Below, in pieces: positions 1 through 39,999 of a DNA stretch of 42,705 bases. Source of the stretch: a virus. Its lineage: Duplodnaviria; Heunggongvirae; Uroviricota; Caudoviricetes. Below the pieces are notes generated by a model, which saw only the letters and a list, made by a program, of their open reading frames with translations, did not search any database and had not been told where the DNA came from. Location: the IMG/VR virus record IMGVR_UViG_2778261632_000005, positions 1-42,705 of that record. One strand, written 5' to 3'. Position 1 is the first letter of the stretch. Every line of letters starts with the position of its first letter. The position numbers and the translations under genes are program-made.

Positions 1-1134
1 TTAATTATTAATAATTTTTATCCAATCCTTGCCTCTATCATCATGGTATCTGGCTGTTTGCTGGGGAGATTTATGCCCCAGCAGTTTTTGAGTATTTACT
101 CCCTGGTCTTCATACAGACGTTCTGCCAGAGAGCGCTGCTCGTGAAAAGTTGCAGGCGTGCCCTCACCCCATTCAATCTCTGCTTTATCCCGTGCTTTGC
201 TGAAATTCATCGTAATGGTGTTGGACTTCACCTGCGCACCGCGCTCCGCCTGCGACGTTGCCCGAAAGAAGTGGATCATATACGGGCTGACTGCATAATC
301 CCGACATCTGGCAACAACATCCCGAAGACACCAACCTATAGCATTAAGGCGCAGAGAAAGAGGGATTGCGATTTTGCTCCCGGTTTTTTCCTGAATGACA
401 TGGAGATGATCATCCCAAATATCGCTAAATTTCATTCGCGAGATATCACCTAACCGCTGGCCAGTCACCAGTGCTAACAGCATAGCATTCCCCATATACT
501 GATGTTTCTTATCCGCGATATCGAAAATCTTCTGCCACTCGTCGAGGCTAAGTCGTTGTCTGGTAATCTTGCGCCTGGGCTGTTTAGTAGCAAGGGCAGG
601 GTTGTGACCAGACGGCACTTCACCGTAGTGTTGGGCCTCTTTGAATACATCGATCAGAACTGAGCGAACAACTTGTGCCATTCTTGGTTGGCCTGCAGAT
701 AGATACTCTTCAAGAATTTGAGCAATATCCCTGACATCAACAGAAGATATCAGTTTCATTCCCGCACGTTCTTTGAGAAGTGCAACTGGCTTTGCTTTTT
801 GTTTATACGTATTCTCTTTGATATCGCCTGACGCGAATCTTTCCTCCTGAATTTTCCAGTACCGCTCAAGCCAGGTAATAGTCGTAATTGCTTTACCTCT
901 GCTGGTGGCAATCCGATCGCTAATAGCCAGAACCTGTCTTGAGCGCTGCTCGGCAAGTCTTGCGTTCGCTTCAGTAGCAATTGCTATAGCCTCCACTTCA
1001 TCAGTACCCAAGCTGTGAAATTTCCCTGTCACAGGGTGTTTGTACCTCCAATAAACTTTATTGACCTTCCGACTATAGAGTGGATAAAGGTTAGGTACTG
1101 ATACATTATTTTTACGTGGTCTCGCTGCCATCGC
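1..1134 (-). CDS. int: Tyrosine integrase, lambda Int family
   Basis: 377 aa from MAARPRKNN; C-terminal motifs resemble lambda Int (LLALVTGQRLGDI, TFHEQRSLAERLYE, LLGHKSPQQTARYHDDRG); AAGGA RBS 8 nt upstream; the ORF is open to 1197 but 1134 fits the lambda Int N-terminus and the RBS. Confidence 0.9.
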   Translation of the reverse strand, partial: AMAARPRKNNVSVPNLYPLYSRKVNKVYWRYKHPVTGKFHSLGTDEVEAIAIATEANARLAEQRSRQVLAISDRIATSRGKAITTITWLERYWKIQEERFASGDIKENTYKQKAKPVALLKERAGMKLISSVDVRDIAQILEEYLSAGQPRMAQVVRSVLIDVFKEAQHYGEVPSGHNPALATKQPRRKITRQRLSLDEWQKIFDIADKKHQYMGNAMLLALVTGQRLGDISRMKFSDIWDDHLHVIQEKTGSKIAIPLSLRLNAIGWCLRDVVARCRDYAVSPYMIHFFRATSQAERGAQVKSNTITMNFSKARDKAEIEWGEGTPATFHEQRSLAERLYEDQGVNTQKLLGHKSPQQTARYHDDRGKDWIKIINN

Positions 1135-1357
1135 TAAGGATCCTTTGCAATTTTGGTGAGTCAGATTTCTTGATAACCGGCGCAGCAAGTTCTCCAACCA
1201 ATTCCGCGTCCTCTCTAACTCTCCAGAGCCTACCTTGCTTCATTGCTGGTGGAGAAAAGAGATTTTGCTTAGCGTAACGGCGCAATGTTGAGACGCTAGG
1301 TGGATTACTTCTGTATTTATCGGTTGCCCATTCTTCAAGAGTTAACATCTGAATCAT
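1112..1357 (-). CDS. xis: Excisionase-like small DNA-binding protein
   Basis: 81 aa directly upstream of int and overlapping its start by 23 nt as in lambda xis-int; GGAGA RBS. Confidence 0.65.
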   Translation of the reverse strand: MIQMLTLEEWATDKYRSNPPSVSTLRRYAKQNLFSPPAMKQGRLWRVREDAELVGELAAPVIKKSDSPKLQRILSDGSETT

Positions 1358-1416
1358 GCGTTATTCTCCATTTAACCCGGCTGCACCCGGAATACGAAAT
1401 TATAAATTATCGCTGG

Positions 1417-1701
1417 TTAGCTTTGGTGGAACAGCATAGAGCGGCCCGGGTGAGACATCAAAACAGCGCCAGCGTATATCACAGGTTCTTTCTTCACCTT
1501 CTTTGTGCCAGTCAACGACATCTGCCACTGGCTCGGCGTTCCTACCTGCCAACACTCATCTACTACCTTCAACATATCCGCGAGAATGTAAGCTCTGTTC
1601 CCGCCGTTTGAGTACTGGGTATCATGCTGCAGGTGTTCGCGTATCTGGTGCAGTCGATCGAGTGATGCAGGACCGTGCGCCGGGTGGTTGTTAGTTGTCA
1701 T
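1417..1701 (-). CDS. Hypothetical protein (94 aa)
   Basis: ATG overlaps the TGA stop of the upstream methyltransferase gene (ATGA coupling). Confidence 0.5.
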   Translation of the reverse strand: MTTNNHPAHGPASLDRLHQIREHLQHDTQYSNGGNRAYILADMLKVVDECWQVGTPSQWQMSLTGTKKVKKEPVIYAGAVLMSHPGRSMLFHQS

Positions 1702-2477
1702 GCTGCACGCTCCTGATTATTTATTTCTACGCAGCACGCTGAATGCTGCAGCTGCCACTCGCGGAACTTGTCCATTTCCAAGGGCTTTAATTCTGTCCAC
1801 CCGATGGGCCACCCCATTAGCCACTCGACCCATTCCGGGTTCAGTGGGCCAGTTACCGTATCCAGCTGCGGTGCAAATGACGGGATTCTGGATGGCGTAT
1901 TTACCTGCTGCGCTAAGCTGGTTCCCGTCATCTTCTCTGTGTACAGCCTCCCCGGTTCGCGTCGCTCGCTGATGGCGTTGTCCACATCCTGTGCGACGAC
2001 CCAAATTCTGTCTCGCTTGTGAGGCGCTCCAGCGTCGAGTGCTGAAATACGACACCATTGCGCGTCATACCCCATTTCGGCAAGGTCACCAACGACCACT
2101 GCAAGTCCTCTTCTAACAAGCAACGGTGAGTTTTCCACGAGCACGAAGCGCGGTCGAACCTCACTGATAATTCTTGCCATGTGCCGCCATAGTCCAGATT
2201 TCTCGCCATCAATTCCCGCTCCCTTTCCAGCGGCGCTAATGTCCTGGCATGGAAACCCTCCAGAAACGACATCAACAATTCCTCTCCATGGCTTTCCGTC
2301 AAAACTGCGCACGTCAGACCAAATCGGGAAAGGTCTGAGGATTCCATCGTTTTGTCGTTGCGCGAGAACTTGTGCGGCGTAGGCATCACGTTCAACTGCG
2401 CAAACTGTGCGCCATCCAAGGAGGTACCCTCCGAGAATTCCTCCGCCAGCGCCTGCGAAAAGAGCCAACTCATTCAC
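1698..2477 (-). CDS. DNA (cytosine-5)-methyltransferase, short orphan type
   Basis: Motif I FAGAGG, motif IV GGFPCQDIS (PCQ catalytic Cys), motif VI VLVENSP, motif VIII HKRDRIWVV; no adjacent restriction endonuclease gene. Confidence 0.85.
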   Translation of the reverse strand: MNELALFAGAGGGILGGYLLGWRTVCAVERDAYAAQVLAQRQNDGILRPFPIWSDVRSFDGKPWRGIVDVVSGGFPCQDISAAGKGAGIDGEKSGLWRHMARIISEVRPRFVLVENSPLLVRRGLAVVVGDLAEMGYDAQWCRISALDAGAPHKRDRIWVVAQDVDNAISERREPGRLYTEKMTGTSLAQQVNTPSRIPSFAPQLDTVTGPLNPEWVEWLMGWPIGWTELKPLEMDKFREWQLQHSACCVEINNQERAA

Positions 2478-2985
2478 ATGCTCCTCCCTGGCACTCCCCC
2501 TTCACGCCAATGCCAGCGGCTTGTAGTTCATCTTCTAGGTGACAAATCTCTTTCGCCATCCTCATTTGGTTGCTTTCGGCGCGGTCCTTGTAGTCACGGA
2601 AATCTCGCTCTACTTCTAATCGCTTCTCTCGGTGAATGCTTTCCAATGATTTAGCTTGGTGTAAATCCTCTGCCTGTCGCTCAAGCTTGAATCGCTGAAG
2701 TTCTACCAACTCATTTGCGGCTTCCAGCTCATCCATCAGCGCCACCACATCAGGGTCGCTAACATCGACGGCGATGACGCGTGACTGTTCGTAGTGGTAG
2801 TCAGCGATGCTGCGACCTTCTGCGTAATGCCCCCCAGCATCGTCATAAGTTGCTCCAGTACAACCGTAAGTAATTCGGCTGGCAGAAATACGCTGCACTG
2901 TCATTTCCGCGCCGCAAATGTGGCATTTAGGTACTGGCTGCGGTGAATAGCGCTCACGCAGCGCCTGTTTGTTGAGTGCTGTCAT
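2470..2985 (-). CDS. Hypothetical protein with N-terminal Cys-rich segment and coiled-coil C-terminus
   Basis: 171 aa ORF; CHICG...YGC putative zinc-binding pattern; charged heptad-like C-terminal half; stop overlaps the methyltransferase start. Confidence 0.55.
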   Translation of the reverse strand: MTALNKQALRERYSPQPVPKCHICGAEMTVQRISASRITYGCTGATYDDAGGHYAEGRSIADYHYEQSRVIAVDVSDPDVVALMDELEAANELVELQRFKLERQAEDLHQAKSLESIHREKRLEVERDFRDYKDRAESNQMRMAKEICHLEDELQAAGIGVKGECQGGACE

Positions 2986-3239
2986 TGGGTGGTCTCCTTG
3001 CGAAACATCAGTATTGTCAGGTCGCCTTTTGTTTCCAGTCGAACAGACCCACCAGGCTCAATCTCAGAAAGGTTGAATGCGTCATACAGTTCATTAACAG
3101 CCTTCTGTCTCTTTTCCTGCTTCTTTCTGGATACCCATTGCTTAAAGGCGATACTGATAAACCATTCACCGGCTTTAAACATGATGTATAACCACCCAAT
3201 AAGAGCTAAACCAGTATTCATCATTGTTGCGATGCTCAT
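2982..3239 (-). CDS. Small membrane-anchored hypothetical protein (85 aa)
   Basis: One hydrophobic helix (GLALIGWLYIMF) then a charged tail; 4-nt overlaps with neighbours. Confidence 0.5.
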   Translation of the reverse strand: MSIATMMNTGLALIGWLYIMFKAGEWFISIAFKQWVSRKKQEKRQKAVNELYDAFNLSEIEPGGSVRLETKGDLTILMFRKETTQ

Positions 3240-3757
3240 AGCGCGGCTCCTTTGCGAAGTTGGGCGGCGAATTCTGCGATGTCTGCTCTGGCCGTGTAGT
3301 GAGGTGGTAGAGAAGCGAGAAGCATCTCCACACCCTGTGCCCGCACTTCAGCCAGGATGGCGTCGGTGGCTGGGGCTTTGCCAGCTTTGCGCTCAATGGC
3401 GCATTGAAGACCTTGAATGGCATCCACAACGCGATTGCTGTCAAGATAGGTCTTACTACGATATACGTGCCTCATAACATCTGATGCGCACTCTTTCACG
3501 GTTACATTCTCCGCCGCCAGCTCCCTGCACTTGCTCTCGGCGTTAGCGAGCTGTACTGCCATGTCTGTGAGTTTCAGTTCAAGATTGTGAATAGTTGCGT
3601 CTGCTGCACGAAACTCGCGCTGGGATTCCGTTAAATTTGAGCATGCGTTCTGAATTGAGTAGGCCAAAATGGCAGTATCACGATCATCTGATTCTTCAGC
3701 TTTAACCTGCAACTGAACCGCCAGGCTGAAGAGATCAGCAATTTGAGTTTCTGTCAT
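3236..3757 (-). CDS. Hypothetical protein (about 173 aa)
   Basis: ORF open to 3859, but the ATG at 3757 lies 4 nt downstream of the ParB-like gene stop; start uncertain. Confidence 0.5.
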   Translation of the reverse strand: MTETQIADLFSLAVQLQVKAEESDDRDTAILAYSIQNACSNLTESQREFRAADATIHNLELKLTDMAVQLANAESKCRELAAENVTVKECASDVMRHVYRSKTYLDSNRVVDAIQGLQCAIERKAGKAPATDAILAEVRAQGVEMLLASLPPHYTARADIAEFAAQLRKGAAL

Positions 3758-3761
3758 ACGG

Positions 3762-4802
3762 TTATTGATAGTTTGCATTGGTATGTACCTGCTGAAGTTT
3801 GTGTTGTTTAACGAAGTGGGCCACTGCTTTTGACTGGCTGGCGATAATTTTTCTGTCACCTAGGTCGAGCGTGACGTTCTTACCGCGATAAATTATTGCC
3901 GAGCCGATTTCCTTACCGTCCAGCTTCACATACAGCACTTTCCCGATAATCTCTGTCGTAGGGATTGGCTGTGAAAGGCGATATGTTTCGCGAGCTTCAG
4001 CAATGGTTTTATGTTCGTCGATTATCGACAGGGCTTCAGCCAGAGCCGTGCCTTGCAAAGTGAACACGCCTTCATCGCTGATCGTCGCCATGGCCATCAG
4101 TTCCACGAAACGGCGAGCACTTTTAATGTTGAGTTCCGGAGCGATAGAACTGCGCGTAACCTTTGTTTTCCCCTGGGCGGCGGCTACGGCTTTATCGTGT
4201 TGGAGAACTTCACCAGCCTGTTCGCCAAACTCACGAACTCGGTCAACGGCAACATCAACAGACACAGCCCCTGATTTAACTTCCTGCTGAACGTCATGGT
4301 TCGCTGTGCTGAGTAGAAGAAGCTTTTCTACGGTGGCTACAGATTTGTTTACCAGCTTTGCAATCTCGCTGGTGGTTTGGTTGAAAGCATTATGAAGCTC
4401 CTGAATAACAGCAGCCTGTTCAATATCGGAAAGGGGGAGTTGGTTATTACTGGTCATGATGCGAGCCAGCCGCTGCACATCGTTACCGTTAAACGGCATG
4501 ATATGAATACGGTCTACTGGCTTACCAGCTTCAGCACAACGCGCATAGCAACGGCGACGGCGATGGCCTTCAACAACCCACACTCCACCTTCATCACGTG
4601 CGATAACCTCCAGCGGAGGAACGGTTCCACCGTTCATCAGATAGTTAAACAGGTCGTCATCTGCCTGGCGGGTGCGTTCGTCGTCTTCACGCTTGTTGAA
4701 ACCTTCACGCACGTGGATATGTTCAAGGCTGATAAACATCCCGGTATCGGTGCGCTTGATGGTCCCATCACGGGACATCTGTTTGAATGAGTTGGCGGCC
4801 AT
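3762..4802 (-). CDS. ParB-like nuclease-domain protein
   Basis: 346 aa; N-terminal ParB/Srx-like motif VVEGHRRRR; start ATG overlaps the stop of the upstream gene (TAATG). Confidence 0.7.
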   Translation of the reverse strand: MAANSFKQMSRDGTIKRTDTGMFISLEHIHVREGFNKREDDERTRQADDDLFNYLMNGGTVPPLEVIARDEGGVWVVEGHRRRRCYARCAEAGKPVDRIHIMPFNGNDVQRLARIMTSNNQLPLSDIEQAAVIQELHNAFNQTTSEIAKLVNKSVATVEKLLLLSTANHDVQQEVKSGAVSVDVAVDRVREFGEQAGEVLQHDKAVAAAQGKTKVTRSSIAPELNIKSARRFVELMAMATISDEGVFTLQGTALAEALSIIDEHKTIAEARETYRLSQPIPTTEIIGKVLYVKLDGKEIGSAIIYRGKNVTLDLGDRKIIASQSKAVAHFVKQHKLQQVHTNANYQ

Positions 4803-5284
4803 TACGCAGTACCTTCACGAAGTTGGTTAGCGAATAACAGAGCCTGATTACCAGCGTAAACAATGCTTTCTTCTTGCTCTTCTTTCCCTATGGCAATAGT
4901 GACGTTTGCGTACTTTTCCACGCCAGTGGCCTGGATATCGCGAATAACCTGATCGGTTACTGGAGTTAACTCGCGTAATTCTCTCTGCGCCTCCAGCATG
5001 TGCATATTGGTCGGCGATTTGGTATGACGTTCAACGATGCGGTCGCACTCTTTGGCCCAACAATTAACATCGTCGCGTAAAACAGTGTTCTCGATGGCCA
5101 GTGTTTTACGCTGTTCCATTGATTCGCACAGCGCGACACCCTGAACATCGTAGCGGTTCGCCAGTTCATTCATCAGCCACTGGGAAGCAGGTGGCAGGAG
5201 AGGGGCAGCTTTACGGGCTGCATCGATCAGTTGCTCTCTGGTCATACGTGGTTGTAACTCAGTGACGTTCTGTGTGGTCGTCAT
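4802..5284 (-). CDS. Hypothetical protein (160 aa)
   Basis: Start MTTTQNV chosen because GGAGA lies 5 nt upstream; the ORF is open further to 5395. Confidence 0.5.
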   Translation of the reverse strand: MTTTQNVTELQPRMTREQLIDAARKAAPLLPPASQWLMNELANRYDVQGVALCESMEQRKTLAIENTVLRDDVNCWAKECDRIVERHTKSPTNMHMLEAQRELRELTPVTDQVIRDIQATGVEKYANVTIAIGKEEQEESIVYAGNQALLFANQLREGTA

Positions 5285-5530
5285 GGTTAGTTTCTCCGTG
5301 TTATATGCGCCCTGCACGGCGCTGAATTTTGGTTGCACGAATCCATCGCCAAAAGGCGAATAAAAGTTTGGGTTTCGTTTCAGTAAATGCCCCATGAAGA
5401 GGCACTTAGTGAAACGGGCGACTGCAATCGCCGGTAAGTTTCTCCACTCAATTGAAAGCGCGTTCCGCTGGTTTTGGATTTAACGAACTGGCACTTAATG
5501 ACAAGGGACAGAACGCGCTTTCAGTTGAGT

Positions 5531-5576
5531 AAAAAGGGCGGTACCAGGGACTTCAAAGGTTGGTACTGGTACCGCC
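5531..5576 (-). terminator. Intrinsic terminator downstream of the tRNA
   Basis: Perfect 11-bp inverted repeat (5537-5547 / 5566-5576) followed on the minus strand by a U-run (5531-5535). Confidence 0.6.
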
Positions 5577-5628
5577 AAGACTCCACACAGCTTTCTTACT
5601 TCCTTGGATCACGAGAACTACGTGATTC

Positions 5629-5705
5629 TGGTGCAGCATGCAGGATTCGAACCTGCGACCCACGGCTTAGAAGGCCGCTGCTCTATCCATCTGAGCTAAT
5701 GCCAC
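5629..5705 (-). tRNA. tRNA-Arg (anticodon UCU), prophage-borne
   Basis: 77-nt cloverleaf read on the minus strand: D-arm GCTC/GAGC, anticodon loop CUUCUAA, T-arm GCAGG-UUCGAAU-CCUGC, 3' ACCA; the acceptor stem has two adjacent G-U pairs. Confidence 0.8.
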
Positions 5706-5709
5706 AACT

Positions 5710-5773
5710 GGAAGCGCACTCCACCTGTTTCACACCTGTCACCCATAACTGGTAAGTAAAGGAGTGCGCTTCC
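5710..5773. repeat. Perfect 13-bp inverted repeat (GGAAGCGCACTCC / GGAGTGCGCTTCC) with a 38-nt spacer
   Basis: Arms at 5710-5722 and 5761-5773; spacer contains CACCTGT twice; sits 4 nt upstream of the tRNA 5' end. Confidence 0.7.
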
Positions 5774-5885
5774 ATGTTGTGTGCCTGTCTTTTCACCACA
5801 TCAGGCTCGGTGGTTCTCGTGTACCCCTACAGCGAGAAATCGGTTAAAATCTTCTCACCCCTACAGAGAGTGATGGATTCCACCG

Positions 5886-6386
5886 ATGGACAACAAATGG
5901 TTGCAGGAAGTACTGCGTTCAATCCTGCGTGACATAGACATTAGGCGTTTAATGCATATGCTAATCATTTTCGTCATTCTCACGGTGCTTTTGCCTGACT
6001 CTGTTAAGCAGTCTGTTGGTGCTCATAATCCGGAATTCCTTCCAGCTTTCAGCCTCTACTATCTGATGATCATCTGCGTAAGTTTTTTTATTTCTTCGCT
6101 TACCAGCTTCACTACTAAATCTCTTTTAAATGCGCTTCATACATTGGCTTTACGTATTCGAGTCATCATGCTTTCAGAACCTGAAAAGCAGTGCCTTCTG
6201 TCTTTCATAAAGACCGGTGACCATGTTGTGTATGCAAAAAATCACAATCCGGTGGTTGAGCAGTTGGTCTATAAAGGCATTCTTAGGAAAACCTACTCAC
6301 TAAATTGTGGCCCAGACATGGAAGGGTACGTCATAGAAGACAAATATCATTTCCACGTGTTAAGGCACTTATCTACCAGTCTTTGA
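5886..6386 (+). CDS. Membrane protein, putative superinfection-exclusion / abortive-infection candidate
   Basis: 166 aa ORF in an AT-rich island; two predicted TM helices then an 80-aa soluble domain; weak RBS; lies between the tRNA and the repressor. Confidence 0.5.
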   Translation: MDNKWLQEVLRSILRDIDIRRLMHMLIIFVILTVLLPDSVKQSVGAHNPEFLPAFSLYYLMIICVSFFISSLTSFTTKSLLNALHTLALRIRVIMLSEPEKQCLLSFIKTGDHVVYAKNHNPVVEQLVYKGILRKTYSLNCGPDMEGYVIEDKYHFHVLRHLSTSL

Positions 6387-6622
6387 CCAAAAAGCTTTAT
6401 CTTTAAAGCAAGCTTTTTAAGCGCAATAGAAATTAGTTTTTCCAGTCGACTTCTATTGCGACGTTCTCGCCTGACCAGCTCATCGAACGTATCAGGTAGG
6501 ACCTTAATATCTGCAGGCAGCTTTTTAAGGTCACAACCGCATTCTGGGCACTTCGTATAAAGTGGCTCAAATTTCCACGATCTAGACAATGCCTCCATCT
6601 TTCTGTTTGCGTATGTGCTCAT
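6347..6622 (-). CDS. Small putative zinc-ribbon protein (91 aa), first gene of the leftward early transcript
   Basis: CPECGC motif and a basic RRERRNRSR stretch; AAGGG RBS 8 nt upstream; 3' end overlaps the convergent 166-aa ORF by 40 nt. Confidence 0.5.
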   Translation of the reverse strand: MSTYANRKMEALSRSWKFEPLYTKCPECGCDLKKLPADIKVLPDTFDELVRRERRNRSRLEKLISIALKKLALKIKLFGQRLVDKCLNTWK

Positions 6623-6691
6623 TACATGCCCTTACATTTATTCCCGGGTTTTACCAGATGAATGTAACTATGGGGTCGTCTGATGTGTTTT

Positions 6692-6746
6692 AAATGTACC
6701 TTTAGTTACCATCATGGTCAAGTAAGTTAATGTACTTTTTGTTACC
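6692..6746. promoter_or_regulatory. Two tandem operator-like repeats (putative OL / pL region)
   Basis: AAATGTACCTTTAGTTACC (6692-6710) and TTAATGTACTTTTTGTTACC (6727-6746); a third copy at 7501-7521. Confidence 0.55.
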
Positions 6747-6798
6747 TTGGTGGCGAAAAAAAATGCCAGAATGATATCTGGCATTAGAAATGAGTTAC

Positions 6799-7458
6799 TT
6801 AGATGTTCTGCGTTATCTGAACAACTTTGCCTACAATGCGGCAATTGCCATCAATGGGGATCGGCTTAAAGGCGGGATTAAGCGGCATGAGATATGAGTA
6901 AGGGCTATCCCAAACAAGTTTCTTCACAGTCGCTTCTGCTGAACCATCAAGTATTGCAACGACAATTTTCCCATACAGGTCATCAAGTTGTCCGTAATGT
7001 GGCTCAACAATAACGATTGAGCCCTCCGGAATTGATGGAAGTCCATGTGGGTTAGTCATTGACTCACCACGAACTACCAATCCGAAAACTTCATCAGAAA
7101 CGTTTGCTGTGGTTTGAGTCCATGAAATCACATCAGTAAGCCTTGAACATGCATAGGTATCAGTCCATACCCCGGCCTGAACAGCAGAGATAATAGGAAC
7201 GGCGGTAGGTGGCTTCAGGTATGGGATAACTTTGGTGTCATCTTGAGTCTCATCACCCTTGCCGTAAAGAATCCATTCAGGAGTGGTCTGTAAAGCCATC
7301 GCTAGTTGGTGAAGGTTTTCTCCGTCAGGCTTAGTTGTACCGTTCTCCCATTTGGTAACGGACACTCTACTCACCCCAAGGCGTTTAGCCAGGGTCTGCT
7401 GAGTTATATCGAGCTGGACTCGCCGGGATCTTATTCGGTCTTTCATCTCTGTTTTCAT
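6799..7458 (-). CDS. cI: Prophage repressor, cI-like (HTH plus LexA-type S24 autopeptidase)
   Basis: N-terminal HTH (QQTLAKRLGVSRVSVTKWENG), Ala-Gly cleavage site (VQAGVW), Ser nucleophile GESM and Lys (TVKKL). Confidence 0.9.
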   Translation of the reverse strand: MKTEMKDRIRSRRVQLDITQQTLAKRLGVSRVSVTKWENGTTKPDGENLHQLAMALQTTPEWILYGKGDETQDDTKVIPYLKPPTAVPIISAVQAGVWTDTYACSRLTDVISWTQTTANVSDEVFGLVVRGESMTNPHGLPSIPEGSIVIVEPHYGQLDDLYGKIVVAILDGSAEATVKKLVWDSPYSYLMPLNPAFKPIPIDGNCRIVGKVVQITQNI

Positions 7459-7550
7459 GTAACCAATGTTACATTGATTCCTTGTAACTGTTGTTTGCTA
7501 TTTAATGTACCTTTTGTTACCTTTAAGGCGTGAGTTAACCAGGAGGAACC
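7459..7550. promoter_or_regulatory. Divergent repressor/cro promoter-operator region (OR-like)
   Basis: Third operator-like repeat TTTAATGTACCTTTTGTTACC at 7501-7521 plus GTTAC/GTAAC half-site-like motifs at 7465-7490; AGGAGG RBS before cro. Confidence 0.55.
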
Positions 7551-7748
7551 ATGTTTAAAACTGACGTCATAGAACACTTCGGAGGGGTATCAAAAACCGC
7601 GAGTGTTTTGGGAATTTCCCATCCTGCAGTGTGCAGATGGGGTGATGTGATCCCTCAGAAGCAAGCTTTTGTTATCGAACGTATCACTAAGGGCAAGCTT
7701 AAATACGATGCCAGCCTTTACCAAAAGTCTACAGACACAGCAGCTTAA
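7551..7748 (+). CDS. cro: Cro-like small HTH regulator
   Basis: 65 aa, divergent from the repressor; HTH (SKTASVLGISHPAVCRW); AGGAGG RBS. Confidence 0.7.
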   Translation: MFKTDVIEHFGGVSKTASVLGISHPAVCRWGDVIPQKQAFVIERITKGKLKYDASLYQKSTDTAA

Positions 7749-7773
7749 ACATAACTACCAAAGGAAAAACAAG

Positions 7774-8238
7774 ATGGTAGAGCAAACCCTGAAGGAAGTA
7801 GTGAAAGCGATGTGCAAGGCGTACCCCGGAGGCCGTCAGGCTATGGCTGGTGCGTTGGGCATGTCAGAAACCCAGTTCAACAACAACCTTTACGAGAAAA
7901 ACGGTTGTCGTTTCTTTGAAGTCACCGAGTTGGAAGCGATGGAAGACATTTCCAACACGTCATTGGTTGCTGACTACTTTGCCAAGCGTCGCGGCGCACT
8001 GCTGGTGGACGTACCAAACCTGGAAGATCTGGACCGTGTTGACTTGTTCAGCCGTGCAATGCGCACAGCAGCTGCAAGAGGGCAGGTTGATCAGATTATC
8101 CAGAAGGCGCTTGAGGATGGAGTTATTGAAAAGCATGAAGCCGAAGAGATTCAGGAACATCACCGCCGTCATCTGGCAGCGCGTGAAGAAGAAATCCGCG
8201 CGATTGTGGCCTTATTCAGCCGCCGTCAAAAGAAGTGA
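7774..8238 (+). CDS. CII-like / YdaT-like regulator
   Basis: 154 aa immediately after cro; AAGGA RBS; the ORF is open from 7669 but the first ATG with an RBS is 7774. Confidence 0.55.
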   Translation: MVEQTLKEVVKAMCKAYPGGRQAMAGALGMSETQFNNNLYEKNGCRFFEVTELEAMEDISNTSLVADYFAKRRGALLVDVPNLEDLDRVDLFSRAMRTAAARGQVDQIIQKALEDGVIEKHEAEEIQEHHRRHLAAREEEIRAIVALFSRRQKK

Positions 8239-8299
8239 CGCCAGCGAGTGTGCAGCTCCAGGCGTCGTGGCGTGTCGTATTCAGTGGAGAAACTAACGC

Positions 8300-8638
8300 A
8301 TGAACAGTGTAACAACACAGTACCGCAGGTCGCAACTTATTGCTCGACCTATGCCGGGTGGAAAAGGCCCGGCGCAGTTCGTGTATGGGGTAATGGTATC
8401 CGGATGCTTTGAGCCTGTCTGCTACCAGTTTGCCGATTGGGTTGTAGGTGATTTCAACGGCCAGGCGGAGAAGGTCGAATGCGAGCACTCAACAGACGGT
8501 TCAAAGACAGCTACGGCGTCCCAGTCAGGGTTATCCGGTGGGAGCCAGAAACTCAACGGGTTATATACCTGCGCGACGGATACGAGCATGAGTGCTTCAG
8601 TCCTCTCGAACAGTTTCAGCGTAAATTCAGGGAAATAG
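8300..8638 (+). CDS. Hypothetical protein (start supported; C-terminal extent doubtful)
   Basis: GGAGA RBS before the ATG at 8300; the C-terminal third is Ser/Thr-rich, looks like off-frame translation, and overlaps the next ORF. Confidence 0.35.
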   Translation: MNSVTTQYRRSQLIARPMPGGKGPAQFVYGVMVSGCFEPVCYQFADWVVGDFNGQAEKVECEHSTDGSKTATASQSGLSGGSQKLNGLYTCATDTSMSASVLSNSFSVNSGK

Positions 8639-8691
8639 AGGATCAGAATGAGCCTGTTAATGACATCCCGGCCCATAGTAATAAATCCTGA
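8479..8691 (+). CDS. Hypothetical small protein (70 aa)
   Basis: GGAGAAGG RBS; protein-like composition; overlaps the start of the replication gene. Confidence 0.4.
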   Translation: MRALNRRFKDSYGVPVRVIRWEPETQRVIYLRDGYEHECFSPLEQFQRKFREIEDQNEPVNDIPAHSNKS

Positions 8692-9568
8692 CCTTGCATA
8701 CAGCATTGGCCTGAATGAGGCGATTGCTTTGCAGCAGATTAATTACTGGCTGCAAGAAACCAAATCGGGCATGGAAAGTGATGGTGTTCGCTGGATTTAC
8801 AACACGACAGAACAGTGGCTGGAGCAGTTCCCGTTCTGGTCTGAGTCGACCCTGAAGCGTACCTTCACCCGCCTGAAGACACTCGGTGTGCTCAAAATTG
8901 AGCAACTGAACAAGTCCCAACGCGACATGACCAACTTCTACACAATCAACTATGAAAGCGAGCTTTTAGATGAAGTCAAAGTGACCGAATCGAAGAGGTC
9001 AAAATGTGCTCTTCCATCAGGTCAAAATGACACGATGGAAGAGGTCAAAGTGACACGCTCCATCAGGTCAAAACGAACCGATGTCATCAGGTCAAAATGC
9101 ACTGATGATCTTACAGAGAATACAACAGAGAGTACTACAGAGATTACAGGTAAAGACTCTTGTCCGGTTGCGGTGCAACCAGACCGAGATGTGTTGATTA
9201 CTGATCAGGCTAAACAGGTTTTGGTTCACCTTAACCAGGTCACGAACTCACGCTACCAGGTTTCAACCACGTCTCTGCAAAACATCCGTGCACGTATCGG
9301 CGAAGGGTTCACCGTTGCAGAGTTGTCGCTGGTGGTGGATTACTGCAACGCGAAGTGGGGTGATGACCTGAAGATGTCTGATTACCTGAGACCACAGACG
9401 CTTTTCCAGCCGTCCAAGTTCCCGGGATACCTCAAGTCTGCAAATAACTGGGACAAAGCTGGCCGCCCAGAACGAGTGAATGGCGAGTGGGCCCGCGAAG
9501 ATGGCATCTTCAAACCCAGCTTCAAGAACACTGATTACAGCGCTATTCCACCAGGGTTCAGGGGGTAA
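8648..9568 (+). CDS. Replication initiator, lambda O-like
   Basis: 306 aa in the replication position after cII; contains an internal iteron array; GAGGA RBS. Confidence 0.7.
   Translation: MSLLMTSRPIVINPDLAYSIGLNEAIALQQINYWLQETKSGMESDGVRWIYNTTEQWLEQFPFWSESTLKRTFTRLKTLGVLKIEQLNKSQRDMTNFYTINYESELLDEVKVTESKRSKCALPSGQNDTMEEVKVTRSIRSKRTDVIRSKCTDDLTENTTESTTEITGKDSCPVAVQPDRDVLITDQAKQVLVHLNQVTNSRYQVSTTSLQNIRARIGEGFTVAELSLVVDYCNAKWGDDLKMSDYLRPQTLFQPSKFPGYLKSANNWDKAGRPERVNGEWAREDGIFKPSFKNTDYSAIPPGFRG
8971..9099 (+). repeat. Origin-like iteron array inside the replication initiator gene
   Basis: Six direct repeats with core GTCAAA(A/G)(T/C)G at 8975, 8998, 9021, 9044, 9067 and 9091 (23-bp period, last 24), with alternating GAAGAG/CATCAG flanks. 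Confidence 0.75.
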
Positions 9569-36417: not shown

Positions 36418-38514
36418 ATGACCACTTATAACACCGGCAATCCGCTGGGGTCTGCTGCTGCAAAAGATTTATACGATAACGCTCAGAACTTTGATCATCT
36501 GTCGAATGATCTTGAAAATGAGATGTGGCCTGACCGATTTGGGAAGAGCAGGTTAACTTGGCATGGAATGGAAAAAAGATACCAGGAAAAGCTGGTGTCT
36601 ATGGGGTGGGAACTGATTGATTCATTTCAGGGAGGAACTACGTTAACGAGGGCAGATCAGGCGTTGCGTTGGGAATTACCTGATGGGGATGGAGAGTATT
36701 ACCGCTGGGATGGCTCTCTGCCTAAAACAGTCCCTGCCGGTTCTACACCAGATTCAACAGGTGGTGTTGGCACTGGCGCATGGGTTGGAGTTGGTGATGC
36801 ATCTCTTAGATCTGATCTAACAAAATATGGTGCAACGGTTGACCAGATAGCGCATCGGGTTACAACACTGAAATCTTTTGAAGAGTTTGGTGCGATTGGA
36901 GATGGGGTTACTAATGATACAGCCTCGATGCTGGCAGCGCTGGAATGGCTGAAAGATGTCCCTTTCGGTAAATTGGTTGGCAGACCTGGCGCAAATTATC
37001 TAATCACACAAAGCCTCGTCATGAAATTTGACGGCTCATACACTCAAGATGTAACGTCAACTCGCTATCTGGATTTTACTGGGACAGTGATTGTGGCAGG
37101 CGCCGATAATATCACTTGCATTCGCATGAGCCATGATTTCTGCCATATCATCAATCCTGTAGTAATTAACCCAAATAACTATTCCGACGTTATCGCCTAC
37201 GCTATTGCACCAGAAACCGAATCTCAGACTACCATACGCGTGTCACAGCAATTCTGTGTAATGGAGAATCCACGAGCACGGGGAACTAAGATAGGCCTTA
37301 AGTTTAAACCAGGGCCTACAGTCGGTGGGAGTAATAGCGGTGCGTATTACCACTCAATTATGAATCCTAATTTTGAGAGAGTGGATTGCGGATTCTATTT
37401 CGAGCGCAGCGTAAGCGGAGACAATAACAACACAAGGATTCATATCTTCAATCCAGTTCATATAACCGGTAACTGTGCTTTTTGGATCGAAAGCACTGAC
37501 TCACTACGCGTTTACGGTGGATCATGTGAAAATATCACATTGGGAACCTGGCCGGCTGACGTGCCATGCGCAGTCCGTGTTGTAAAAACAGTAAGCACAG
37601 ATACACAGGTCGCTGGAAACCTACATTTCTACGGATATCTTGGAGAAGTTTGTCACAGAGCCTATCAAATAGATACAAATGTAGGAACCTACGAAAACTA
37701 CTTTGATTGGAAATGGGTATTAATTAATGAAAACCCATATCGCGCACCAGGACAGGATGGGAATTTCGTAGCACGATTTGATGGGGAAATTCTTAGTAGT
37801 AGCTGGGACAACAGTGCTCTTAACGTAGTAGGGTGTAGAAACCCACATACAGGACATCAGGCAATAATCATCCAAAATCCAGATGAGACGCCAGCAGAAC
37901 TTTGGAGTAATACTGGGTGGAAATTTACCGCAACAATTTACGATTGCCCGGCACAAAATTTACAACATAGTAATAGCCATGAACAGATATTAGGGGCATT
38001 GTATGCTGGATTGACGCTTACAACCTATCCTGATAGCAGGAGAATAATGTTAACAAGCAAGGAGGGGGCTGATGGGGTTGAGAGACCACAAAATGATCTG
38101 ATAATTAATGGATTTAACAGGCTATGTGCAGAAAATGATAATGATACCGCTCTTGGTGATTCTGATAGACGGTGGAGTGTTGTTTATGCAGCTACTAGTT
38201 CAATAGTTACATCTGATGAGGAGCATAAAACCTCTTTTCTATCAGATGATAATACTTTAGAAAGAGAGAAGAAGGCAGCTAAGGAAATTAAAAGCTGTAT
38301 ATTTCGGTATAAGTTTAAAAAAAGCATTGATAAAAAAGGAGAGGGGGCCCGTCTTCATTATGGAGTGGGGGCGCAAACTGTTGGCGAAATTATGAGGAAG
38401 TATGACCTGAATCCGGATAATTATGCTTTTTGGTGCAGAAACAAAACAAATGAAGGCGATAGGTATGGTATCAGATACGAAGAGTTAATTATGTTTCTGA
38501 TGGTTAACGCATAA
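36418..38514 (+). CDS. Tailspike / side tail fibre with C-terminal intramolecular chaperone-like domain
   Basis: 698 aa; central region looks like a beta-helix depolymerase domain; C-terminal 110 aa resembles peptidase-S74 autoproteolytic chaperone domains (TSSIVTSDEEHKT ... GARLHYGVGAQTVGEIM ... YGIRYEELIMF). Confidence 0.6.
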   Translation: MTTYNTGNPLGSAAAKDLYDNAQNFDHLSNDLENEMWPDRFGKSRLTWHGMEKRYQEKLVSMGWELIDSFQGGTTLTRADQALRWELPDGDGEYYRWDGSLPKTVPAGSTPDSTGGVGTGAWVGVGDASLRSDLTKYGATVDQIAHRVTTLKSFEEFGAIGDGVTNDTASMLAALEWLKDVPFGKLVGRPGANYLITQSLVMKFDGSYTQDVTSTRYLDFTGTVIVAGADNITCIRMSHDFCHIINPVVINPNNYSDVIAYAIAPETESQTTIRVSQQFCVMENPRARGTKIGLKFKPGPTVGGSNSGAYYHSIMNPNFERVDCGFYFERSVSGDNNNTRIHIFNPVHITGNCAFWIESTDSLRVYGGSCENITLGTWPADVPCAVRVVKTVSTDTQVAGNLHFYGYLGEVCHRAYQIDTNVGTYENYFDWKWVLINENPYRAPGQDGNFVARFDGEILSSSWDNSALNVVGCRNPHTGHQAIIIQNPDETPAELWSNTGWKFTATIYDCPAQNLQHSNSHEQILGALYAGLTLTTYPDSRRIMLTSKEGADGVERPQNDLIINGFNRLCAENDNDTALGDSDRRWSVVYAATSSIVTSDEEHKTSFLSDDNTLEREKKAAKEIKSCIFRYKFKKSIDKKGEGARLHYGVGAQTVGEIMRKYDLNPDNYAFWCRNKTNEGDRYGIRYEELIMFLMVNA

Positions 38515-38525
38515 GTAAATTAATA

Positions 38526-38553
38526 CCCCCCGCACTATATAATTATACGGGGG
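38526..38553. terminator. Hairpin between convergent tailspike and gtr genes (possible bidirectional terminator)
   Basis: CCCCCG / CGGGGG stem flanking an AT-rich 15-nt loop. Confidence 0.45.
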
Positions 38554-38558
38554 TTATA

Positions 38559-39995
38559 TTAGAATCTAATAACTACAATATTATCAACGAGATATATTGC
38601 AAATACATTACCTGCATATAAGGTGGTTTTGTCATTTGCTTTTAGTAAAATTTCATCACGTTTATCATTATTTGCATAGGTAATATCATTTAGCCCGTTC
38701 CTCATTAAAATAAATCTTCCACCATCATAACCCCAAGAAAATGTGTCAAGCATCATGTTATTCATGAATGGATAAATGTTAATGGTTGACTCCATGACTC
38801 CAGAATGTTGTGGGCGCCCATCAATAATAAATTCTTTATGCTTTGATAAATTCAACCTGTCAAGATTACTCACTATCCTGGTTGCTAAAGATTCTGCATA
38901 TCTAAAATCTTCTCGCACTGCATTTGTAGATGCACATAAAAAAAGATAATTAGTAAAGTAAAAAAATACCGCTGGCGCAAGCCATAGCCATTTACGTTTA
39001 AAAGAACAGCACAACGCATAAAGACAGAAGAAGGATGCAGCAGAAATCCCTATAATTGTTCGTGGTATGATTGATGGATTTTGCCCATACACTCCAACTC
39101 CTGGTATAAACGTGACAAGTGCACATAAAACAATAACTATCGTCAGAAAGGTAAATAATGGTTTTGTTGATCTAAAGCACATAACGCATACAGCAACAAC
39201 AAACGCAGCGCACATGATTGCAATCGGGTATAAAAATGGTGAGTCTAGTAGTTTTAAAATGAGTATGTATGAGTTTTTGTAATTATTAAGAACTGTTTCA
39301 AGTCCCGAATAAGTCAATGGAACGATTTTATTGAAATTCAAAAAGTAATAACTTACATTAGTTATTGGGATAATAACTTTAAGGTATGCTATAGTGCCTA
39401 AAAGAAATGTTAAAGCTCTAATTATCAATACTTTGGTTATGTTTTTATAATTTTCTTTTTTTACATAAGCTCCCATGAATATCTCAATAGCGGATAGACA
39501 TATAAATAGTGCTATTGCAGCTTGGTAAAGAGAAAGGCTGGCAACAAGAGCCGTTACTGACAAAACAAAAGAAGATATTTTGTTAGTGTGTAAAATATAA
39601 GGCGTAATTGCCATGGTTACAGATAGAACCATAAAGAAGGAATCATATCTGAATAATAAATTAGAAACAAAAAAAGGAGATGCTAAGAAGCATAAAGATA
39701 GCACTATTGCTTTAATCCCTTTGCTCCCTATAAAGTATTCACATACTTTTAAAGATACTGCACTATAAAGGATTAATGCCAGAATTGTCATTCCTGGGAA
39801 GTAGTCAGGAAGAACATCTCCTGTAGTAATTGTTCTATATATAGCTTCTGCAAGAGGTCGTCCATCTCCTTGCCATCCATAATATGACCATACCGACCTA
39901 AATATGTCGTCATTATAATAACTAGTTCCTAACAGTAATGGAATGGCATAAAATAATGTCAGTCCAGCAGCAATAACTATATGTCTATTAGGCAT
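38559..39995 (-). CDS. Serotype-specific O-antigen glucosyltransferase, GtrC-like polytopic membrane protein
   Basis: 478 aa, about 10 predicted TM helices, strongly AT-rich coding sequence, immediately downstream of gtrA-gtrB. Confidence 0.75.
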   Translation of the reverse strand: MPNRHIVIAAGLTLFYAIPLLLGTSYYNDDIFRSVWSYYGWQGDGRPLAEAIYRTITTGDVLPDYFPGMTILALILYSAVSLKVCEYFIGSKGIKAIVLSLCFLASPFFVSNLLFRYDSFFMVLSVTMAITPYILHTNKISSFVLSVTALVASLSLYQAAIALFICLSAIEIFMGAYVKKENYKNITKVLIIRALTFLLGTIAYLKVIIPITNVSYYFLNFNKIVPLTYSGLETVLNNYKNSYILILKLLDSPFLYPIAIMCAAFVVAVCVMCFRSTKPLFTFLTIVIVLCALVTFIPGVGVYGQNPSIIPRTIIGISAASFFCLYALCCSFKRKWLWLAPAVFFYFTNYLFLCASTNAVREDFRYAESLATRIVSNLDRLNLSKHKEFIIDGRPQHSGVMESTINIYPFMNNMMLDTFSWGYDGGRFILMRNGLNDITYANNDKRDEILLKANDKTTLYAGNVFAIYLVDNIVVIRF

Positions 39996-39999
39996 GATA

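What the first reader, a model, noticed from the sequence alone, without database searches (positions are those of the whole stretch)
1417..5284. Early-left operon pairing an orphan short C5-cytosine methyltransferase with a ParB-like nuclease-domain protein and five unknowns
All seven genes are on the minus strand with 4-nt stop/start overlaps. The methyltransferase has clear motifs I, IV (PCQ), VI (ENS) and VIII but is only 259 aa, and no cognate restriction enzyme is nearby. Together with the ParB/Srx-fold protein this looks like an anti-restriction or defence-related early module rather than lambda exo/bet/gam recombination functions.
Basis: partly seen in the sequence, partly recalled or inferred. 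Interest (0 to 1): 0.55.

Follow-up and report, generated by a model that had tools for sequence, protein, structure and literature searches.

The report
Frameshifted two-frame phage cytosine methyltransferase gene
The "short orphan methyltransferase" is a frameshifted copy of a phage DNA-methylase gene that is normally readable in two overlapping frames over its whole length, each frame carrying a different half of the enzyme, while the surrounding operon is an ordinary block of prophage accessory genes.

Summary
The seven tightly packed minus-strand ORFs are real. They form the int-proximal accessory block of a lambdoid E. coli prophage. The 259-aa "methyltransferase" is not an intact short enzyme.

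Relatives (Salmonella phage S9-5, Citrobacter, Pseudomonas, Acinetobacter; 140 loci examined) carry two co-extensive ORFs on the same DNA:
- Frame A holds C5-methyltransferase motifs I-VIII and motif X.
- Frame B, whose ATG lies 4 nt after A's start, holds the WPTP-type target-recognition region and a motif-IX-like LNPxWVEWLMGWPIGWT.
- Both frames are stop-free over 230-365 codons in 55/60 genome loci. Both are co-extensive in 74/80 viral loci. The third frame has 12-31 stops.

In the window, a 1-nt deletion at 1941/1942 fuses the A N-terminus to the B C-terminus. It truncates B at 181 aa and strands motif X in the third frame. This allele occurs on 17 contigs. The other E. coli allele has stops in both frames.

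The best model is an alpha/beta heterodimeric methyltransferase like M.EcoHK31I, inactivated here.

The ParB-like protein has an ordinary ParB N-terminal domain plus HTH. No gene in the block matches a known defence-system model. The operon is ordinary; the two-frame methyltransferase family is the interesting part.

The parts
1417..1701 (-). 94-aa hypothetical ORF. Its ATG forms an ATGA overlap with the stop of the frame-B tail of the methyltransferase locus.
   Evidence: PGAP WP_227467229.1 in relatives. Partial hit to phrog_6144 of unknown function.
1698..2477 (-). 259-aa ORF annotated as a DNA cytosine methyltransferase. It is a chimera of frame A codons 1-178 (motifs I-VIII) joined to the frame B C-terminus (motif IX-like).
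   Evidence: The exact protein occurs on 17 contigs.
1942..2477 (-). Frame A, N-terminal part, forming the catalytic large domain. Motif I is at 2439-2459, IV at 2235-2258, VI at 2124-2135 and VIII at 1992-2021.
   Evidence: PF00145 E=8.6e-31 over residues 4-182. Aligns to M.HhaI 13-173 in relative P0365. Coordinates.
1941..1942 (-). Frameshift site. One T is missing between these two bases: minus strand GTA|CAC here against GTATCAC in E. coli PCP07014 and 23CRST032.
   Evidence: Alignments. Restoring the base gives A = 253 aa and B = 258 aa.
1928..2473 (-). Frame B, 181-aa truncated ORF (MSWLFSQAL...MWTTPSASD...). Its ATG lies 4 nt after A's GTG and forms an ATGA overlap with the stop of the upstream Ead/Ea22-like gene.
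   Evidence: 3955 cluster representatives match it. The full-length form has 4772 homologues. Annotated as WP_244572820.1.
1698..1941 (-). Frame B C-terminal part, now read in the 259-aa ORF. It holds the end of the target-recognition region and the motif-IX-like LNPEWVEWLMGWPIGWT (1794-1844).
   Evidence: B-type codon-position pattern. hhalign places the motif on M.HhaI 274-290.
1717..1941 (-). Frame A C-terminal remnant, stranded in the third frame inside ORF 1717-2058. It holds EPGMGRVANGVAHRVDRIKA (1783-1842) and motif X LGNGQVPRVAAAAF (1741-1782).
   Evidence: PGAP's pseudogene model in relatives ends at this stop.
2470..2985 (-). 171-aa Ead/Ea22-like protein.
   Evidence: PF13935 E=1.1e-17. 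phrog_1138 and phrog_368.
2982..3239 (-). 85-aa DUF4752 protein.
   Evidence: PF15944 E=2.2e-39. phrog_667.
3236..3778 (-). 180-aa protein of unknown function, using the PGAP start.
   Evidence: phrog_492.
3762..4802 (-). 346-aa ParB-family protein with a ParB N-terminal domain carrying a GHRRRR box, plus an HTH.
   Evidence: PF17762. phrog_1033 E=1.2e-83. Aligns to 4umk ParB 59-196. 82% nt identity to the phage mEp390 ParB-like gene.
4802..5284 (-). 160-aa protein of unknown function, the first gene of the block.
   Evidence: phrog_14171 E=2.3e-59.

Best explanation
Window 1417-5284 is the int-proximal accessory (left-operon) block of a lambdoid E. coli prophage.

Its methyltransferase locus belongs to a large phage and prophage family of C5-cytosine methyltransferase genes that are coded in two co-extensive frames:
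- Frame A encodes the catalytic large domain. It carries motifs I-VIII, then a disordered-looking linker, then motif X.
- Frame B starts at an ATG 4 nt after A's start. It reads through the same DNA as a stop-free N-terminal extension, then the WPTP-type target-recognition region, then a motif-IX-like segment. Together these make up the small domain.

The most likely mechanism is inferred, not shown. Both chains would be translated from the same coupled start region. They would assemble into an alpha/beta heterodimeric methyltransferase, as shown experimentally for M.EcoHK31I. That enzyme would methylate phage DNA to evade host restriction.

In this window the gene is broken. A 1-nt deletion at 1941/1942 switches A into B. 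The 259-aa product lacks motif X and the first part of the recognition region. B stops at 181 aa. This copy is therefore most likely inactive.

The remaining genes are ordinary accessory genes of unknown role with no detected defence function: 94 aa, Ead/Ea22-like, DUF4752, 180 aa, ParB-family and 160 aa.
For: Shown
- S9-5 has two full overlapping ORFs of 244 and 247 aa.
- The window differs from its 99.9%-identical relatives by one missing T, which explains all three partial ORFs.
- Both frames are open end to end in 55/60 genome loci from diverse bacteria. They are co-extensive in 74/80 viral loci. The third frame has 12-31 stops.
- Synonymous-codon permutation expects 5.3 stops in B given A, with P(0)=0.0016 per locus. 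It expects 8.9 stops in A given B, with P(0)=1e-4. None is observed.
- The B-frame protein has 4772 homologues, and 3955 cluster representatives match its N-terminal part.
- Codon-position diversity switches along the gene. It is A-type over motifs I-VIII, B-type over WPTP and LNPEWVEWLMGWPIGWTDLKPL, and A-type again over LGNGQVPRV.
- The B ATG context [AG]TGAATG is kept in 47/53 genome loci and 76/80 viral loci.
- Downstream genes are start/stop-coupled to the B stop in 35/110 loci and to the A stop in 24/110. In the window, both ends of B sit in ATGA overlaps.
- In tandem-type relatives, A stops just after motif VIII and B carries the recognition region, IX and X.
- The motif-IX-like segment aligns to M.HhaI 274-290.
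- The AF2 model of A gives pLDDT ~25 for the linker that shadows the recognition region and motif IX.

Precedent
- The M.EcoHK31I beta chain (motif IX) is encoded in an alternate frame inside alpha (motifs I-VIII and X). Both chains are required (PMC2836561, PMC3404938).

Inactivation
- The window allele occurs on 17 contigs. The double-stop allele occurs on at least 121 contigs. PGAP calls the latter a pseudogene.
Against: - There are no expression, proteomic or methylation data for any family member.
- The AF2 model of B is low-confidence (pLDDT 47, pTM 0.31). It has no fold or sequence match in the PDB. The alignment behind it was shallow, and the bona fide domain in A also scored only 47-79.
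- Amino-acid-level selection on the B N-terminal 165 residues is unproven. The ratio dNN/dNS is 0.54-0.64, but the estimator is position-biased, as the control frame shows.
- Pfam and NCBIfam models do not reach motif IX or X in either frame. The hhalign hit is not significant (E=0.23).
- The loci are related by descent and horizontal transfer, so they are not independent samples.
- Many A-N+B-C chimeras like the window's ORF are annotated as methyltransferases. Some activity for such forms cannot be excluded.
Confidence: 0.6

Rival explanations
1. One reading: the 259-aa ORF is an intact, unusually short orphan C5-methyltransferase. Together with a ParB-like nuclease it forms an active anti-restriction or defence module.
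For: - Motifs I, IV, VI and VIII are present, with a strong PF00145 N-terminal hit.
- NCBI annotates the identical protein as a DNA cytosine methyltransferase.
- Similar A-N+B-C proteins occur in other genomes.
Against: - The ORF changes frame at 1941/1942 relative to its relatives. Motif X is left in another frame.
- In unbiased samples about 92% of loci keep both frames intact.
- Chimeras switch frame at many different points, some before motif VIII, which is what random frameshift mutants would look like.
- There are no PADLOC hits for the neighbouring genes.
- ParB shows only partition-type features.
Confidence: 0.08
2. A single-chain enzyme is made by programmed ribosomal frameshifting. 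The ribosome would shift A to B after motif VIII. In the window's subtype it would also shift B back to A before motif X. Frame B is not translated on its own.
For: - The mosaic of selection (A, then B, then A) is what a recoded single chain would show.
- In tandem-type relatives, A ends with a stop 7-20 codons after motif VIII, where a +1 shift would give a canonical enzyme.
- Rare single-frame I-VIII+TRD+IX+X proteins exist, namely P0365 and P0390.
Against: - It does not explain why B stays stop-free over the 165 codons upstream of the supposed shift site.
- It does not explain the conserved B ATG.
- It does not explain why A stays open through the recognition region, nor the coupling of neighbouring genes to both stops.
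- There is no conserved slippery sequence at the IX/X boundary: AATTAAAG in the window against AATTAAGG in S9-5.
- Two shifts in one gene would be unprecedented.
Confidence: 0.12
3. Frame B is a conserved but functionless shadow ORF. It is kept open for a reason other than its protein product. One possibility is that ribosomes unavoidably start at the AAUGAG AUG and must not terminate inside the gene.
For: - The AF2 model of B is low-confidence and has no structural or sequence relatives.
- Selection on the B N-terminal amino-acid sequence is not demonstrable.
Against: - The codon-position pattern is B-type over the recognition region and the motif-IX-like segment. There the A reading is low-complexity and is predicted to be disordered.
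- WPTPxAxD repeats and LNPxWVEWLMGWPxGWT are conserved as protein motifs across variants of different length.
- Without B, frame A has no recognition domain and no motif IX.
Confidence: 0.12

Closest known systems
M.EcoHK31I (YGGCCR), the heterodimeric C5-methyltransferase of E. coli HK31 (Lee, Kam & Shaw 1995, as described in PMC2836561 and PMC3404938)
   Same: - Alpha carries motifs I-VIII and X.
- Beta carries motif IX and is encoded in a different reading frame inside the alpha gene.
- Both chains are needed for activity.
- The alternate-frame-encoded N-terminus of beta contributes to alpha-beta association.
   Different: - Beta is described as 'smaller' and lying 'entirely within' alpha. 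Here B is co-extensive with A, starts 4 nt after A's start, and ends within about 15-60 nt of A's stop.
- Here the recognition region appears to be in B, whereas it is assigned to alpha in M.EcoHK31I.
- M.EcoHK31I belongs to a restriction-modification system, whereas these genes are orphan phage genes.
M.AquI alpha/beta (Karreman & de Waard 1990; Pinarbasi 2002, as cited in PMC3404938)
   Same: It is a natural two-chain C5-methyltransferase split in the variable region. Alpha carries I-VIII and beta carries IX-X. This matches the tandem-type relatives L068-L071, where A carries I-VIII only and B carries the recognition region, IX and X.
   Different: The PMC3404938 passage read here says nothing about how far the two M.AquI genes overlap. 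In the relatives studied here the beta-like ORF runs back over the whole alpha coding region. In the window's subtype, motif X has moved to the A frame.
Monomeric C5-methyltransferases (Pfam PF00145; M.HhaI, M.HaeIII)
   Same: The A N-terminus aligns to M.HhaI 13-173, with motifs I-VIII in canonical order. The division into a large domain (I-VIII, X) and a small domain (TRD, IX) follows their structures (PMC3404938).
   Different: No single frame contains all ten motifs. Family models match only the N-terminal half.
Lambdoid and P22-like 'ea'/accessory regions between int-xis and the PL-proximal genes (e.g. phage mEp390, Salmonella phage S9-5)
   Same: The position next to int/xis is the same. 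So are the Ead/Ea22-like, DUF4752 and ParB-like genes, the mosaic gene content and the tight translational coupling.
   Different: There are no recombination genes in this block. The methyltransferase cassette is replaced by an HNH endonuclease in the closest other E. coli prophages.

Membership tests
C5-cytosine DNA methyltransferase (PF00145 / TIGR00675) | Motif I (FxGxG), the AdoMet-binding loop | tested here: met
   FAGAGGG at residues 7-13, window 2439-2459. PF00145 E=8.6e-31.
C5-cytosine DNA methyltransferase (PF00145 / TIGR00675) | Motif IV (PCQ catalytic cysteine), motif VI (ENV) and motif VIII (QxRxR) | tested here: met
   GFPCQDIS, ENSP and HKRDRIWVVA are all present. The region aligns to M.HhaI 13-173 in relative P0365.
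C5-cytosine DNA methyltransferase (PF00145 / TIGR00675) | Target-recognition domain plus motifs IX and X in the same polypeptide as motifs I-VIII | tested here: not met
   - In the 259-aa ORF the motif X unit (LGNGQVPRVAAAAF) is in another frame at 1741-1782.
- In intact relatives the IX-like motif and the WPTP region are in frame B, while X is in frame A.
- Pfam and NCBIfam match only profile positions 4 to about 180.
- The TIGR00675 score is 79.3, below its cut-off of 100.65.
Alternate-frame heterodimeric C5-methyltransferase (M.EcoHK31I type) | The alpha chain has motifs I-VIII and X but lacks motif IX | tested here: met
   This holds for intact relatives and for the repaired window sequence. 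It does not hold for the window's frameshifted copy.
Alternate-frame heterodimeric C5-methyltransferase (M.EcoHK31I type) | A second ORF in another frame of the same DNA carries motif IX | tested here: met
   - Frame B carries LNPxWVEWLMGWPIGWT.
- It shows a B-type codon-position pattern.
- hhalign places it on M.HhaI motif IX at 274-290, though only at E=0.23.
Alternate-frame heterodimeric C5-methyltransferase (M.EcoHK31I type) | Both polypeptides are made and both are required for methylation | not testable with these tools
   The evidence is only indirect: ORF conservation, the conserved ATG, and coupling of neighbouring genes to both stops.
Alternate-frame heterodimeric C5-methyltransferase (M.EcoHK31I type) | Sequence homology to M.EcoHK31I alpha and beta | not testable with these tools
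   The sequence is not held in any searchable collection here. The papers give no sequence.
Programmed ribosomal frameshift gene | A conserved slippery site, with the zero frame closing soon after the shift site and the new frame closed upstream of it | tested here: not met
   Both frames are open over the whole gene. The IX/X boundary sequence is not conserved. Only the tandem-type relatives have an A stop after motif VIII.
ParB/Srx superfamily (ParB N-terminal domain plus HTH) | An N-terminal ParB box with an arginine patch (GERRxR), followed by an HTH | tested here: met
   Residues 50-187 align to 4umk ParB 59-196, with VEGHRRRR against AGERRLR. PF17762 HTH_ParB E=4.5e-6. phrog_1033. Nuclease activity was not tested.
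Known anti-phage defence or anti-restriction systems (PADLOC) | A match of the neighbouring proteins to defence-system models | tested here: not met
   The 94, 171, 85, 180, 346 and 160-aa proteins have no PADLOC hits. Only the frame-A methyltransferase hits generic MTase models.

The most novel reading that the evidence does not exclude
A family of thousands of phage and prophage orphan C5-methyltransferase genes is obligately coded in two frames over its entire length.
- Frame A makes the catalytic large domain.
- Frame B makes the DNA-recognition small domain behind a ~165-residue N-terminal extension born by overprinting.
- The two chains start from one shared coupling site ([AG]TGAATGAG) and assemble into the active enzyme.

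This would be one of the longest and most widespread conserved same-strand full gene overlaps known in bacteria or phages. It would also mean that standard annotation, which keeps only frame A, misses half of the enzyme.
Probability: 0.45. Interest if true: 0.8.

Novelty: new variant of a known kind. Interest (0 to 1): 0.6.

Why it matters
1. Annotation. Both frames are open, so any single-base indel yields a full-length chimeric ORF that pipelines call an intact "DNA cytosine methyltransferase". The window's 259-aa protein and dozens of similar database entries are examples. Meanwhile the B chain is dropped or labelled hypothetical. Predictions of methylome or anti-restriction function from such calls will be wrong.

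2. Biology. If both chains are made, this family generalises the single M.EcoHK31I curiosity into a common phage design. It offers a large natural data set for studying how fully overlapping genes arise and are maintained. Examples are the overprinted N-terminal extension and the movement of motif X between frames.

3. This locus. The prophage's methyltransferase is inactivated in every E. coli copy seen, through two independent alleles. That argues against the proposed active anti-restriction role. It hints at selection against foreign m5C in E. coli. This last point is inference only.

Tried and rejected
- AF2 models of B (P0001, 70 sequences) and A (P0271, 48 sequences) were both low-confidence (pLDDT 47 and 51). 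They therefore cannot decide whether B folds.
- A Foldseek search of the B model against the PDB gave only noise.
- A profile of B against PDB sequences gave nothing.
- Pfam and NCBIfam at lenient thresholds did not detect motif IX or X in either frame.
- An OLGenie-like dNN/dNS estimate suggested purifying selection on the B N-terminus (0.54-0.64). Applying the same estimator to the third frame gave 1.3-1.6, which shows strong position bias. I do not count this result as evidence.
- I looked for a -1 slippery site at the IX/X boundary. A_AAG is present in the window but not in S9-5.
- PADLOC and PHROGs gave no function for the five unknown proteins.
- Literature searches for the B sequence or for this family-wide overlap found nothing. 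They found only the M.EcoHK31I and M.AquI precedents.
- I rejected sequencing error as the cause of the frameshift, because the exact chimera occurs on 17 contigs from several sources.

Full report
**Observation**

Listing ORFs in window 1-9000 shows integrase (1-1197) and excisionase (1112-1357). Seven tightly packed minus-strand ORFs follow:

| Window coordinates | Product |
|---|---|
| 1417-1701 | 94 aa |
| 1698-2477 | 259 aa |
| 2470-2985 | 171 aa |
| 2982-3239 | 85 aa |
| 3236-3778 | 180 aa (alternative starts at 3757 and 3859) |
| 3762-4802 | 346 aa |
| 4802-5284 | 160 aa |

- Two complete E. coli genomes carry the same block at 99.9% identity, in a prophage inserted next to icd. PGAP annotates the same seven genes there.
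- Pfam assigns Ead/Ea22-like (PF13935) to the 171-aa protein and DUF4752 to the 85-aa protein. It assigns HTH_ParB to the 346-aa protein. It assigns PF00145 to the 259-aa protein, but only over residues 4-182.
- PHROGs places the other proteins in families of unknown function and the 346-aa protein in phrog_1033, "ParB-like partition protein".
- PADLOC finds nothing for the six non-methyltransferase proteins.
- The ParB-like protein aligns over residues 50-187 to the chromosomal ParB N-terminal domain plus HTH, including the arginine box. Nothing indicates a nuclease.

**What the "short methyltransferase" really is**

- One search already shows two other long ORFs on the same strand inside 1698-2477. 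One is a 181-aa ORF (1928-2473) starting MSWLFSQAL. The other is a 113-aa ORF (1717-2058) ending ...RVDRIKALGNGQVPRVAAAAFSVLRRNK, which looks like a motif X unit.
- In Salmonella phage S9-5 (82% nt identity over the 5' two-thirds) the homologous locus holds two complete overlapping ORFs.
  - Frame A (244 aa) has motifs I, IV, VI and VIII and ends in ...RVDRIKALGNGQVPRVAAAAF.
  - Frame B (247 aa) starts 4 nt later. It runs MSWLFSQAL...LWPTAKA...LNPQWVEWFMGWPIGWTELRPLAMDKF.
- Aligning the window with the two E. coli genomes, S9-5 and E. coli PT62 shows what happened. The window lacks one T, reading GTA|CAC at 1942/1941 on the minus strand against GTATCAC.
- Restoring that base gives A = 253 aa and B = 258 aa.
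- The 259-aa ORF is therefore A codons 1-178 joined to the B C-terminus. The 181-aa ORF is a truncated B. Motif X is stranded in the third frame (coordinates).
- The two other E. coli genomes keep the T. They carry two substitutions, at window 2114 and 2110, that create TGA in A and TAG in B. PGAP calls that copy a pseudogene.
- The window's chimera is a real allele, found as an exact protein on 17 contigs. Fragments of the double-stop allele occur on at least 121 contigs. Intact A (252-253 aa) and B (255-259 aa) occur in Citrobacter.

**Is the two-frame arrangement real and selected?**

- The repaired B protein has 4772 homologues with full-length coverage. None has a Pfam domain, and nearly all are unnamed or labelled "hypothetical".
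- The B N-terminal 181 aa matches 3955 cluster representatives at the 50% identity level.
- A scan of one genome per species returned 60 loci from Enterobacterales, Pseudomonas, Acinetobacter and Betaproteobacteria. A few came from MAGs of Phycisphaerae, Flavobacteriales, Parachlamydiaceae and Sulfuricurvum.
- In 55 of those 60 loci, frames A and B are both stop-free over the whole 230-365 codons and end within about 60 nt of each other. The third frame has 12-31 stops.
- An independent sample of 80 viral contigs gave 74/80 co-extensive pairs.
- I permuted synonymous codons while keeping the A protein and its codon usage. This predicts 5.3 stops in B, with P(0)=0.0016 per locus. The reverse test predicts 8.9 stops in A, with P(0)=1e-4. 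None is observed.
- The start context [AG]TG AAT G.. is kept in 47/53 genome loci and 76/80 viral loci. The Asn codon is always AAT, which creates the B ATG.
- Among 110 distinct intact loci, a downstream gene start overlaps or abuts the B stop in 35 and the A stop in 24. Upstream genes end in an ATGA overlap with the B ATG in 22 and in an xTGA overlap with the A start in 38.
- In the window, both ends of B sit in ATGA overlaps with the neighbouring genes.

**Which frame codes what**

- Codon-position diversity across the intact loci switches along the gene.
  - Over motifs I-VIII, the A third position varies most.
  - Over the alignable WPTP block and GQLNPEWVEWLMGWPIGWTDLKPL, the B third position varies most.
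  - Over the last ~15 codons (LGNGQVPRVAAAAF), the A pattern returns.
- Between motifs VIII and X the A reading is low-complexity, rich in R, Q, E and S, and unalignable. The B reading of the same DNA has repeated WPTPxAxD motifs in variants of all lengths.
- The AF2 model of an A protein gives a Rossmann-like N-terminal half (pTM 0.52). It gives pLDDT ~25 for residues 167-239, the stretch that shadows the recognition region and motif IX.
- hhalign places LSPDWVEWLMGWPPGWT on M.HhaI 274-290, which is motif IX. The E-value of 0.23 is not significant, but this is the only hit and it falls at the expected position.
- In structural terms A carries the large domain (I-VIII plus X) and B carries the small domain (TRD plus IX). 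The domain definition comes from PMC3404938.

**Family variants**

- *Tandem type.* In loci L068-L071 the A ORF stops 7-20 codons after motif VIII, giving 168-190 aa. The B ORF (363-491 aa) carries its N-terminal extension, the recognition region, IX, a linker and X.
- *Single-frame forms.* Rare proteins hold I-VIII+TRD+IX+X in one frame: P0365, P0390, P0392 and about 5 of 117 top hits in all. In P0365 and P0392 a stretch of out-of-frame 'junk' follows motif VIII, as a frameshift fusion would leave. Only P0365's DNA was examined.
- *A-N+B-C chimeras.* Many proteins like the window's ORF are annotated as methyltransferases. Their switch points differ, and some lie before motif VIII or even at residue 7. 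This fits ordinary frameshift mutants that stay ORF-open because both frames are open.
- *Rate of breakage.* In the unbiased samples about 8% of loci are broken.

**Mechanism**

- M.EcoHK31I is an experimentally characterised C5-methyltransferase made of two chains.
  - Alpha carries motifs I-VIII and X.
  - Beta carries motif IX.
  - Both chains are required, and the N-terminus of beta promotes association (PMC2836561, PMC3404938).
- M.AquI is split into alpha (I-VIII) and beta (IX-X).
- The family studied here fits this kind, with a more extreme layout. The most likely mechanism is that both chains are translated from the shared start region and assemble into an alpha/beta enzyme.
- As an orphan phage methyltransferase, that enzyme would protect phage DNA from host restriction. 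This role follows from established knowledge of phage orphan methyltransferases, not from a test here.
- Translation of B, heterodimer formation and the methylated sequence are all inferred. None was shown.
- The window's copy can make neither an intact A nor an intact B, so it is most likely inactive.

**Rival explanations**

- *Programmed frameshifting to a single chain.* This would explain the mosaic of selection. It would not explain the open B frame upstream of the shift, the open A frame downstream of it, the conserved B ATG, or the coupling of neighbours to both stops. No conserved slippery site was seen.
- *A functionless shadow ORF.* This is contradicted by the B-type selection pattern over the recognition region and motif IX. 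It would also leave A without any recognition domain.
- *An active 259-aa monomer.* This would lack motif X and cannot be fully excluded without an assay.

**Limits**

- There are no expression or methylation data.
- The AF2 model of B is uninformative (pLDDT 47, from a shallow alignment) and has no PDB relatives.
- Selection on the amino-acid sequence of the B N-terminal 165 residues is unresolved, because the estimator is position-biased.
- Family HMMs do not reach motifs IX and X.
- Homology to M.EcoHK31I could not be tested, because no sequence was available.
- The loci share ancestry and are not independent.

**Verdict**

- The operon as described is ordinary prophage accessory content, and the defence interpretation is unsupported.
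It is a frameshifted allele of a gene coded in two frames.
- That gene family is a more extreme and far more widespread version of the M.EcoHK31I arrangement. I found no description of it in the searchable literature.

Noticed in passing
window 5629-5705 (-): A tRNA-Arg (anticodon TCT) gene lies inside the left-operon region, between the 160-aa gene and sieB. The 93-aa plus-strand ORF at 5474-5755 overlapping it is probably spurious.
   Followed up: partly
window 2110 and 2114 (L003/L005 equivalents): The two other E. coli copies of this prophage differ from the window by two substitutions 4 nt apart. Together they create a stop in frame A (TGA) and a stop in frame B (TAG). This double-stop allele is the commoner one, on at least 121 contigs. 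Every E. coli copy seen is inactivated in one way or the other.
   Followed up: partly
window 5886-6386 (+), 6799-7458 (-), 7551-7748 (+): The immunity region holds a sieB-like superinfection exclusion gene (81% nt identity to P22 sieB), a LexA/S24-family CI-like repressor and a Cro-like gene, which supports a P22/lambdoid prophage identity.
   Followed up: partly
window 38001-40000: GC content drops sharply to 0.33-0.36 against about 0.48 elsewhere. This suggests a horizontally acquired moron or cargo segment near the right end of the prophage.
   Followed up: no
P0025 (ENA metagenome protein, 432 aa): The frame-B protein is fused in frame to a Dam-type N6-adenine methyltransferase domain (PF05869). 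In phage S9-5 an adenine methylase gene sits immediately upstream of the two-frame C5 gene.
   Followed up: no
P0004 and P0109 (402 and 392 aa): These frame-B proteins start with a first short MSWLFSK-type stretch. About 150 unrelated residues follow before the usual B sequence, which hints at duplication or insertion at the shared start region.
   Followed up: no
L058 (Parachlamydiaceae MAG) and L047, L053, L064: Two-frame methyltransferase loci turn up in MAGs far outside the Proteobacteria. L058 has an N-terminal 75 residues nearly identical to the enterobacterial type, followed by a divergent remainder that still keeps both frames open. The cause may be recombination, horizontal transfer or contamination.
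   Followed up: no
E. coli hits H23-H25: The closest other E. coli prophages share the ParB-like, Ead/Ea22 and flanking genes at about 93% identity. They carry an HNH endonuclease and DUF4014/DUF551 genes where this window has the methyltransferase, so the cassette is exchangeable.
   Followed up: no
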